The notes below the pieces were generated by a model. The model was not told the origin of the DNA. It saw nothing but the letters and a program-made list of their open reading frames with translations, and did not search any database. A stretch of DNA of 63,263 bases, counting the filler, from Kipferlia bialata (taxonomy: Eukaryota): NCBI GenBank assembly GCA_003568945.1. It is 5 parts of 5 records of this genome, joined end to end, with 100 filler letters (N's around TTAATTAATTAA, not from the genome) between each part and the next. Parts side by side here need not be neighbours in the genome. Positions count along the whole stretch, not along the records: positions 44,868 to 54,406 come from BDIP01000358.1; 4 more parts are not named here. One strand, 5' to 3'. Below, piece by piece: positions 49,404-51,416 of this stretch; within the stretch, counting starts at the first letter, position 1, and each line of letters opens with the position of its first letter. Both the position numbers and the translations under genes were made by a program.

Positions 49404-49624
49404 AGGCATAGATAGGACGTGCTATTCAAGAGAATAGAATATGACAGGTTCTCCTTGCTTTTGACGAGAATATTGATGTACTTGTCACCAATGGAGATAT
49501 ACTAGCACTGTGTCTATTGTCTACATCAGGTGCAGCCCAGCCTTGTCCTTGATTTTCCTACTGGCCCTGTCGTATTATGAATTACTTGTCACCAATGGAG
49601 TTATAGAAGAGCTGCATCTATTGT

Positions 49625-51416
49625 CTACATCAGGTGCAGTCCAGCCTTATCCTTGAACTTTCTGCTAGCTCTGTCATACGATGTGTAGCAGATATAGGGC
49701 CCGTGGAACACCATACCGAACCCAGAGAGAGGGGGAGGCAGCATGAGCTTGAAAGAAATCTGAGGGTCAGTACTTGTCTATTACGCAGAGATAAGGGAAA
49801 TGGGAGTAGTAGGAGCTTGAAGGAAATCCTAGCGTGAGATATACAGAGAGAGAGGGAGAGAGAGAAGGGGGGGGGGGGAGGCAAGAGGAGCTTGAAAGAA
49901 ATCTACGAGTCAGACATATAGAGAGAGGGGCAAAGAGTTCGTACAAGACACTATGGGGGATAGAGGAAAGAAGGTGGAGGGGGGGGGTGGGTAGAAGAAG
50001 CTTGACGGGTGACAAGGAGGAGTCAGGTCAAACAGTGAACAGTTACAATATATAATACTGTCATACCTTGCGCTTTAGAACTGTGAGGGGTGCCTCATCC
50101 TCAGGTCTCTCTCCCTCTCTAGGCAGGACTAGGACAAGGGTGTTGGCGGTCTCCTGGGGTTATTAATAATATATTAATAATAATATATAGCAATAATTGC
50201 ATAATCTATAGTGTTAAGTGTAGTGTATATATACATATACATAGAGATACGGCAGGACTATGACAAGGGTGTTGGCAGTCTCCTCGAGTTATATATAAAT
50301 AATGACAACAGAGACACGAGACATAGATAGCTGGAACTCTGGAGAAGGTAATGTATGTAGACGAATACATACGGCTGGGAAATATGTGAGAAAGACAGAA
50401 AACCATACGGTCATACTATACATACCTGCAACACAATACCACGGACCCCTACCCACTGTGGGTTGGTGGACCTGACAATCTGGGGGTGAGAGACATGTAT
50501 AACCGACAGATACAAAATGGACTGGGTGCGATAAAGAGAGAGACAGTGGAGAGGGGATGGGGGGGGGGGCTGGACTGTGCAGAGGGCCTGAAACAATCAT
50601 TAGAGAGGTTACGAGTGTATCAAAAAGAATGGCACAAGTGCAGATACATATCATGTTGGTTATAGTACACTCACCTCAATTGCAGCCCCGTGCATGTCTA
50701 GTCTGACCAGGGGGGATAGACCAGTGTCAGTCATGCGGGACTGCACTGATATGCGCTCTGAGAGTGAGACAAAGACACAGGACAAGGGAGGGGACAGAGA
50801 GAGAGAGATGAGTGTGTTTCAATAGAGTGTAAGATTCGACCACACACACACTGAGGCCAAGAACAGCTAACCATATCTAGAACACCATAGATACAGAAAG
50901 ATATAGGGGGGGGAGAGAGAGAGACATGTAAGGTAGAGAGGAAGAGTCACATGTACCTGAACCGGACAGCCTGTCCCACCGCCTCATGACAGACTGTGCA
51001 GGCTCTGGCAGCTGCTCAAACACTGACCCGAAGTAGTCCTTCCAGGCATCATAGAGAATAAGGGCATCGCTCCAGCTGAGGCTGGGCGGTGGCGCCACGG
51101 GGGTACTCTTATGTGATGTCTTGGATACAGTCTTCTTCCCACCCTTCTTCGCTCCCTTACCGGCCGGTTTGCTGACCTGGTGCACGAGCCCAGCAGCACG
51201 CTTCTGCACTGCAGTAACAGATGTATCCCGCTGCTCCACTAACCGTTGCCGCTCTTGCCTGGCAGCAACTACTTCTGGATCCGCATCTGTGGCAGTATAG
51301 GTCGCCAGTCTCAGAGTATGTCCTGCTAACTTCTGATCCACAATCCTACTAGCCTGCGCAGGAGGTATTGGGATAGCCCCAGCTATCAGCTTCAGTATCG
51401 AATCGTTGGAATTCAT
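49625..51416 (-). CDS. POP4: RNase P/MRP protein subunit POP4/Rpp29, 5 exons
   Basis: The spliced product contains LYDAWKDYF, LVRLDMHGAAIEIVRSTNPQWVGVRGIVLQETANTLVLV and VFHGPYICYTSYDRASRKFK, which are the characteristic Rpp29 motifs. Confidence 0.9.

What the first reader, a model, noticed from the sequence alone, without database searches (positions are those of the whole stretch)
49479..49679. The echo phenomenon also affects a stop codon and 3' UTR (POP4), so it is not tied to splice sites
A ~104-bp tandem duplication copies the last 17 codons, the stop and part of the 3' UTR of POP4. The downstream copy reads YDRASRKIKDKAGLHLM* against YDRASRKFKDKAGLHLM*, and 8 of 9 substitutions are synonymous. 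It lies after the real stop and has no evident acceptor, which points to a DNA-level mechanism rather than alternative splicing.
Basis: partly seen in the sequence, partly recalled or inferred. Interest (0 to 1): 0.75.

Follow-up and report, generated by a model that had tools for sequence, protein, structure and literature searches.

The report
Retired allele copy behind POP4's stop
In the protist Kipferlia, the end of the POP4 gene is followed in the DNA by a second copy of its last 17 codons that differs almost only at silent positions, like dozens of other exon-end copies nearby; these copies are likely ends of other working alleles left behind by recombination, which would make the genome a record of past genetic exchange.

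Summary
Confirmed. A 104-bp tandem unit repeats POP4's last 17 codons, stop and 42 nt of UTR; 8 of 9 coding differences are synonymous (Fisher p=3e-4). It is real DNA: one contig of run X1 crosses both copies with no differences at single-copy depth (455 vs 472), so it is not an assembled second haplotype. The spliced RNA contig carries the upstream copy's alleles; cryptic splice sites for the echo score below all real ones. The echo is one of many: 110 curated exon-end echoes at splice sites show pN/pS 0.15 (150 of 210 differences at third positions for nearest copies), conservative replacements, shared breakpoints and mosaic variants. A neutral duplicate cannot give this. Best reading: each echo is the recently retired end of a diverged working allele, left in tandem by repair or recombination between haplotypes and tolerated only in introns or past a stop. 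The anatomy matches avian 'exon stuttering' (2026); the protist case, the density, the stop-codon example and the synonymous signature were not found in my searches. Allelic origin is inferred; no second strain's POP4 was available. 'Not tied to splice sites' rests on 1 of 5 gene ends checked.

The parts
49583..49678 (-). Copy 1 (expressed): last 17 codons of POP4 (49628-49678), stop TAG (49625-49627), 42 nt of 3' UTR
   Evidence: RNA contig X2 record 10 covers 49581-49759 with 0 other letters; matches C-terminus of P0001
49575..49582 (-). 8-nt junction spacer between the two copies
   Evidence: crossed by DNA contig X1 record 2, 49088-49831
49479..49574 (-). Echo: 17 codon-like triplets (8 synonymous, 1 F>I change), TAG at 49521-49523, 42 nt UTR-like with 7 changes; last 18 nt identical to copy 1
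49625..51416 (-). POP4 (RNase P/MRP p29) coding region, exons 50957-51416, 50675-50757, 50426-50479, 50067-50153, 49625-49759
   Evidence: RNA joints; translation equals P0001; PF01868; similarity to human RPP29, PDB 6ahr_D
50251..50294 (-). Acceptor-type echo of the start of POP4 exon 4 inside intron 3, skipped in RNA
   Evidence: RNA joint 50152-50425 skips it; DNA contig X1 record 8 spans it
49811..49913 (-). Two acceptor-type echoes of the start of POP4's last exon inside intron 4, skipped in RNA
   Evidence: RNA joint 49759-50067
49567..49679 (-). Hypothetical cryptic intron (GT at 49679 to AG before 49566) that would splice in frame into the echo; both sites weak, no joint seen
49332..49403 (+). 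Last exon and stop of the convergent neighbouring gene, 75 nt from the end of the echo
   Evidence: RNA joint into 49330

Best explanation
The 104-bp unit is a real tandem duplication in the chromosome whose downstream copy is likely the recently retired 3' end of a diverged, working POP4 allele, left behind when two haplotypes recombined or one repaired a break from the other. SHOWN: the tandem is in DNA at single-copy depth; the RNA contig carries copy 1; differences are synonymous here and across 110 exon-end echoes in six gene regions; replacements are conservative; copies within arrays share breakpoints and mix variants. INFERRED: (1) both copies were under protein-level selection through most of their divergence, so the echo stopped coding only recently; (2) the species carries very diverged alleles (mean uncorrected pS about 0.25, about 0.8 at this echo) that pair in exons but poorly in the microsatellite-rich introns and intergenic DNA; (3) a break near an exon end invades the other allele, copies about 100 nt past the end of homology, fails to re-anneal and is end-joined to the old exon end (aborted SDSA plus microhomology joining); later unequal exchange between shared exon parts adds or refreshes copies; (4) selection keeps only events whose extra copy falls in an intron or behind the stop, so the link to splice sites is a filter on where homology ends, not a splicing mechanism. 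Step 1 is well supported, step 2 follows if the donor is an allele, step 3 is the least certain (about 0.4).
For: DNA contig X1 record 2 spans 49088-49831, 0 other letters, 0 gaps, depth 454.8 vs 471.6 for the flanking contig; about 412 expected if the copies were half-depth haplotypes; longest exact run between copies 23 nt, below a 31-mer. POP4 echo: 8 of 17 third vs 1 of 34 first/second positions, p=2.8e-4; p=0.001-0.02 against a neutral echo. Window: positions 1/2/3 = 60/37/214 in 1177 codons of 110 echoes, pS 0.251, pN 0.038; nearest echoes 150 of 210 at third positions, p=2e-10 against the 50% ceiling of a neutral echo; holds with model-chosen frames (ratio 0.17) and in all six regions. 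Adjacent echo vs echo, neither coding: 23/20/75 in 30 pairs. 43 single-base replacements have mean BLOSUM62 +0.26 vs -0.50 expected, p=0.001. Breakpoints within 2 nt in 34 of 57 within-array pairs vs 6.6 in shuffles; four-gamete conflicts in 2 of the 2 arrays that had two or more informative columns, of 7 examined. Units in frame in 21 of 72, the chance level. F>I hits a residue shared with human RPP29, fitting post-retirement decay (n=1). Literature: aborted SDSA plus Pol-theta joining gives tandem duplications from about 100 bp (PMC8654963, passages); crossovers in a hypervariable fungus favour exons (PMC4209137, passages); synonymous diversity of 0.20 exists in a eukaryote (PMC4576712, abstract); metamonads lack NHEJ, fornicates lack Rad51A and keep two Dmc1 (PMC8516963, section 8).
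Against: No segregating allele was seen: X1 shows no other letters in 3.1 kb, and the run of a second sample (X3) does not cover POP4 and shows 0 other letters in its listed pieces of the neighbouring genes. pS of about 0.8 at this echo is the top of the window's range and far above known within-species diversity. Many echoes are identical to the real exon yet have unlike intron flanks (14 of 72 with no third-position change); intron-side likeness is only modest (mean percentile 0.59 and 0.71). The predicted extra decay of outer copies is weak and not significant (9 up, 4 down, 10 equal; Fisher p=0.15); outer vs inner halves p=0.24. Simple repeats at junctions are enriched for acceptor echoes (37 of 55 vs 33% background) but not donor echoes (19 of 55 vs 41%). 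Only 1 of 5 gene ends examined has an echo. Exon bounds outside 48985-52100 are inferred, not RNA-checked. Sex has not been observed in metamonads (PMC8516963).
Confidence: 0.62

Rival explanations
1. The echo came from a diverged paralog or homeolog (for example of an old hybrid or polyploid ancestor) by ectopic repair, not from an allele.
For: Explains synonymous bias and the very high pS (0.79) without extreme polymorphism.
Against: No other contig of X1 lies on the echo or on POP4 exon 1 at 85% likeness (depth is flat; the small excess in the echo bin equals a 25-letter chance piece); only one POP4-like protein found among 1309 candidates; arrays hold up to five distinct, mosaic variants, more than two subgenomes give.
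Confidence: 0.14
2. The echo is a minor alternative terminal exon reached by a cryptic intron created by the duplication (intron gain by tandem duplication), so selection still acts on it.
For: A GT at 49679 and an AG before 49566 would give a 113-nt intron and an in-frame product ending at the echo's stop; the mechanism is known (PMC3443670).
Against: Donor -7.5 and acceptor 2.5 score below all 37 and 38 curated sites; the RNA contig carries copy 1; codons that would lie inside that intron also differ synonymously; F>I alters a conserved residue; intronic echoes show the same bias though only 21 of 72 keep frame.
Confidence: 0.08
3. An ordinary tandem duplication (slippage or sister-templated repair) with a neutrally decaying echo; synonymous changes arose only in the working copy, with or without local gene conversion.
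For: Simple; tandem duplications of this size are common repair products; the seed event may well be of this kind.
Against: Predicts pN/pS about 0.5 and at most half of the differences at third positions; observed 0.15 and 71% (p=2e-10); predicts unbiased echo-echo differences and unselected replacements, both contradicted.
Confidence: 0.1
4. Assembly artefact: two haplotypes or strains laid head to tail by a short-read assembler.
For: Periods cluster near 100 bp (median 103), near short-read length; four echo junctions elsewhere in the window carry N gaps between identical copies; X1 may be the source of the window and is then not an independent sample.
Against: A separately built contig runs through both copies with no difference at single-copy depth; no joint skipping 104 bp; two other echoes are spanned likewise.
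Confidence: 0.03

Closest known systems
Avian 'exon stuttering' on dot chromosomes (PMC12954441; passages and second part of Discussion read)
   Same: Lateral part of an exon with its donor or acceptor copied in tandem into the adjacent intron; coding exon intact; exon part median 36 bp there, 32.5 bp here; simple-repeat-rich introns; the authors speculate on repair or meiotic strand invasion.
   Different: Here a free-living metamonad; 75 echo-bearing sites in about 35 kb against 3.4% of dot-chromosome introns; fewer copies (1-6 against median 4, up to 44); a stop/UTR example; strong synonymous bias. The words synonymous, stop codon, UTR and protist do not occur in that paper's main text. Length polymorphism shown there, untested here.
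Tandem duplications from aborted SDSA plus Pol-theta end joining (C. elegans helq-1, brc-1; PMC8654963, passages)
   Same: Head-to-tail copies from about 100 bp; extended end joined to the other break end; microhomology at junctions.
   Different: There the copies are identical at birth, rare and seen in mutants; here the copies differ as two selected alleles do and are dense in an unmutated genome. HELQ/Pol-theta status of this species not checked.
Intron gain by tandem genomic duplication / internal gene duplication (review PMC3443670, passages; Gao and Lynch 2009 not held)
   Same: Tandem copy of an exonic segment that leaves the protein intact.
   Different: No new intron is evident; echoes lengthen existing introns or sit behind the stop.
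Mutually exclusive tandem exon duplicates (search listings only)
   Same: Tandem exon copies with conserved protein sequence.
   Different: Echoes are partial, carry one splice site only, and are skipped in the RNA joints seen.
Exon-biased crossing-over in hypervariable Schizophyllum commune (PMC4209137, passages)
   Same: Recombination between very diverged genotypes concentrates in conserved exons.
   Different: No duplications described there ('duplicat' 0 occurrences).

Membership tests
POP4 / RNase P-MRP p29 | PF01868 above curated cut-off | tested here: met
   56 bits vs 27; human RPP29 E 7e-6
Exon stuttering (avian definition) | [quoted passage not shown] | tested here: met
   75 curated sites, 111 echoes; the POP4 echo borders the stop/UTR instead of an intron
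Exon stuttering (avian definition) | Coding exon stays intact and is spliced normally | tested here: met
   RNA joints skip the echoes in 3 echo-bearing introns of 48985-52100
Exon stuttering (avian definition) | Repeat-rich introns | tested here: met
   133 TRF rows in the window; 33-41% of filler 12-mers hold a dinucleotide repeat
Exon stuttering (avian definition) | Extensive within-species length polymorphism | not testable with these tools
   Only one DNA run listed
Aborted-SDSA/TMEJ tandem duplication | Microhomology or templated insertion at the junction | tested here: inconclusive
   Simple repeats abut acceptor echoes (37 of 55) but not donor echoes (19 of 55); POP4 junction has an 8-nt spacer of unclear origin
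Aborted-SDSA/TMEJ tandem duplication | Dependence on Pol theta / HELQ defect | not testable with these tools
   No genome held; needs genetics
Alternative terminal exon / intron gain by tandem duplication | Usable donor and acceptor joining into the downstream copy | tested here: not met
   Scores -7.5 and 2.5, below all curated sites; RNA contig uses copy 1; rare use not excluded
False duplication of a second haplotype | Half depth, missing junction, or alternative contig without the copy | tested here: not met
   Full-depth contig across the junction, no skip joint

The most novel reading that the evidence does not exclude
Kipferlia introns and gene ends are built in part from retired ends of other alleles: every recombination or repair event between hyper-diverged haplotypes that overshoots an exon end leaves the old allele in tandem. 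A single homozygous-looking genome would then archive tens of thousands of past alleles, give synonymous diversity of 0.25 or more, supply direct sequence evidence of genetic exchange in a metamonad, and identify inter-homolog recombination as the engine of exon stuttering.
Probability: 0.5. Interest if true: 0.85.

Novelty: new variant of a known kind. Interest (0 to 1): 0.7.

Why it matters
Exon stuttering was described in 2026 in birds with its mechanism open. Here the same anatomy is dense, and the synonymous signature discriminates between mechanisms: it needs a donor that was under coding selection. If the donor is an allele, the echoes are a readable record of recombination in a group where sex has never been observed, a way to estimate diversity from one genome, and a route of intron lengthening. 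The stop-codon case shows that the boundary that matters is the end of conserved sequence, not the splice site. In practice echoes also mislead gene prediction: my own naive model took many for exons.

Tried and rejected
No RNA holder listed on record; X2 and X3 are 'RNA?' guesses, though their GT-AG joints show spliced RNA. The echo itself has no RNA-contig cover and the POP4 contig stops at 49581; contigs cannot show ends or absence, so this is not counted as evidence. No whole genome is held, so echoes could not be counted genome-wide and no direct search for a second POP4 locus was possible. Read data for a second gene region were not obtained, so exon bounds and DNA continuity outside 48985-52100 are unverified. 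Exact 27-nt echo pattern in metagenome contigs: 0 matches. Homolog search for the long gene at 5200-20400: none of 312 candidates. Pfam on single POP4 exons: no hit. Frame-free mod-3 test on 202 raw blocks: 970 of 2199 pairs (44% vs 33%), diluted by intron mismatches. A self-trained gene model overfitted to echoes and was used only as a guide. Rank and inner/outer decay tests not significant; GC>AT skew at positions 1+2 (31 vs 14, p=0.016) does not differ significantly from third positions (p=0.14). X1 joints with 20-25 letter sides were treated as microsatellite chance matches. Earlier-findings look-ups returned nothing. Programmed DNA collapse between repeats rejected: no skip joints in X1.

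Full report
OBSERVATION. On the minus strand, 49583-49678 is repeated at 49479-49574 (period 104, 96 nt, 83% identity, 8-nt spacer, no N). The unit holds the last 17 codons, the TAG and 42 nt of UTR. Nine coding differences: 8 synonymous transitions at third positions and one F>I; 7 differences in the UTR part. Match score 56 against at most 15.5 in 30 shuffles. The exon upstream is 100% identical to P0001, labelled Kipferlia bialata, which is POP4 by Pfam and by likeness to human RPP29.

IS IT REAL DNA? Three runs hold the stretch; all three were laid on 48985-52100 at 85% likeness. One DNA contig (X1 record 2) runs 49088-49831 through both copies with no other letters or gaps, at depth 454.8 against 471.6 for the neighbouring contig; half-depth haplotypes would give about 412, and the copies share no exact run over 23 nt. 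No joint skips 104 bp and no second POP4-like contig lies on the echo or on exon 1. X1 may be the source of the window, so it is a separate assembly, not a separate sample; contigs also drop rare variants. The second-haplotype artefact is rejected for this echo and for two others spanned likewise. Four junctions elsewhere carry N gaps between identical copies and may be scaffolding errors; the copies next to them were left out of the counts (the 6221 and 17777 copies in such arrays were kept).

WHICH COPY IS USED? The spliced POP4 contig of X2 has four GT-AG joints, rebuilds P0001 and shows no other letters over 49581-49759, so it carries copy 1 at all nine sites. A cryptic 113-nt intron could join in frame into the echo, but its donor scores -7.5 and its acceptor 2.5, below all 37 and 38 curated sites (matrices trained on those sites). 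In three echo-bearing introns the RNA joints use the first donor and the last acceptor (for the plus-strand gene the upstream loose end places the joint at the first copy). Rare use of the echo is not excluded.

THE WIDER PATTERN. A diagonal scan gave 202 blocks; 188 lay in regions of assigned strand, 146 were auto-typed into 87 families, and by hand I kept 75 sites with 111 echoes, dropping mistyped duplicates, copies beside N gaps and unclear cases; one with an offset error fell out, leaving 110. Donor-type echoes (exon end plus GT) lie downstream of the real site, acceptor-type echoes upstream; exon part median 32.5 nt, period median 103. Frames were set by eye with phase continuity; a codon model agreed at 69 of 75. 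Differences at codon positions 1/2/3 are 60/37/214 in 1177 codons; pS 0.251, pN 0.038, ratio 0.15 (0.17 with model frames). For nearest echoes 150 of 210 differences are at third positions, p=2e-10 against 50%, the ceiling if the echo were neutral and only the real copy took silent changes. The bias holds in all six regions and between adjacent echoes (23/20/75). Replacements are conservative. Units keep frame in 21 of 72, so echoes are not in-frame alternative sites. Within arrays breakpoints coincide (34 of 57 pairs vs 6.6) and variants are mosaic in the two arrays able to show it. The similarity cut-off favours young echoes but cannot by itself move mismatches to third positions. Against or neutral: decay does not rise significantly with rank; intron-side likeness is modest; only 1 of 5 gene ends has an echo, which with so few ends neither supports nor contradicts a rate like that at splice sites.

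HOW IT MOST LIKELY WORKS. A non-coding copy with pS 0.79 and pN 0.024 must have been coding through most of its divergence (inference). No second gene was found, and arrays hold several mosaic variants, so the donor is most simply another allele. Proposed route (inferred): diverged haplotypes pair in exons; a broken end copies the other allele about 100 nt past the end of homology, fails to re-anneal and is joined to the old exon end; unequal exchange between shared exon parts later adds copies with the same breakpoint; selection removes events that leave the extra copy in coding sequence. The POP4 echo is the same event at a stop codon. Precedents: PMC8654963 (passages), PMC4209137 (passages), PMC4576712 (abstract), PMC8516963 (passages and section 8: no NHEJ in metamonads, no Rad51A but two Dmc1 in fornicates, meiotic genes kept, sex not observed). 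That Dmc1 tolerates mismatches is recalled, not from a call. Confidence 0.62 for allelic origin, about 0.4 for the exact route.

COMPARISON. The closest known phenomenon is avian exon stuttering (PMC12954441; passages and second part of the Discussion): same anatomy and exon-part length, mechanism open. It works like exon stuttering and meets three of four defining features; polymorphism could not be tested. The published draft genome paper of the species (PMC5874029; passages, outline, methods) reports 124,912 introns and has no occurrence of 'duplicat'; PMC6679479 (passages) mentions the species only for spliceosomal proteins and snRNAs. Nine literature searches gave no description of these echoes in this species or of a synonymous signature in stuttered exons; subscription journals are mostly not covered, Gao and Lynch 2009 was not held, and no supplements were opened.

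VERDICT. Real, DNA-level, part of a dense window-wide pattern; a new variant of exon stuttering whose synonymous signature points to retired alleles. Interest 0.7; the POP4 case alone is one supporting example, the pattern is the finding.

Noticed in passing
window 5200-20400, 22450-26500, 35500-42700, 45900-51450, 60290-63263: 75 curated splice sites carry 111 tandem exon-end echoes, up to 6 per site (for example 6910-7600 and 14170-14620 on the minus strand), with pN/pS 0.15.
   Followed up: yes
window 48921-49332, 49760-50066, 50154-50425: RNA joints use the first donor and the last acceptor although echoes offer near-equal sites; suggests exon definition or nested splicing.
   Followed up: partly
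window-wide, e.g. 16690-16730, 17300-17570: Stereotyped intron 3' end, (CT)n then ACACCC-T[TA]A-...-CAG, 17 matches to a strict pattern; branch-like TNAY sits 9-10 nt from the exon in 31 of 38 acceptors.
   Followed up: partly
window 22347-22446, 44768-44867, 54407-54506, 60186-60285: Four 100-nt spacers (N44, a 12-nt stop linker, N44) beside poly-C/G runs: the window joins several contigs.
   Followed up: no
window 6242, 12761, 17723, 24583: Short N gaps between identical echo copies; these copies may be scaffolding artefacts.
   Followed up: partly
window 2017-2310: Tandem duplication (period about 140-160) with no clear splice site, just behind a minus-strand ORF end; a possible second non-splice echo, coding status unclear.
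   Followed up: partly
window 49479-49496 and 49583-49600: An 18-nt UTR block is identical in both copies while the 16 nt before it differ at 7 sites; the echo's block lies 76 nt past the convergent gene's stop and may serve that gene's 3' end.
   Followed up: no
window 51632-52070: RPS29-type gene (PF00253) with two RNA-supported introns and a poly(A) join at 51632; the POP4 RNA contig extends to 51708, overlapping its 3' end (a contig across two genes shows no single transcript).
   Followed up: no
window 49886-50008: DNA contigs at about half depth (215-270) around G-runs: heterozygosity or homopolymer dropout.
   Followed up: no
window 50300-60290: Almost no echoes by the diagonal scan (1 block) in this stretch, against dozens elsewhere.
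   Followed up: no
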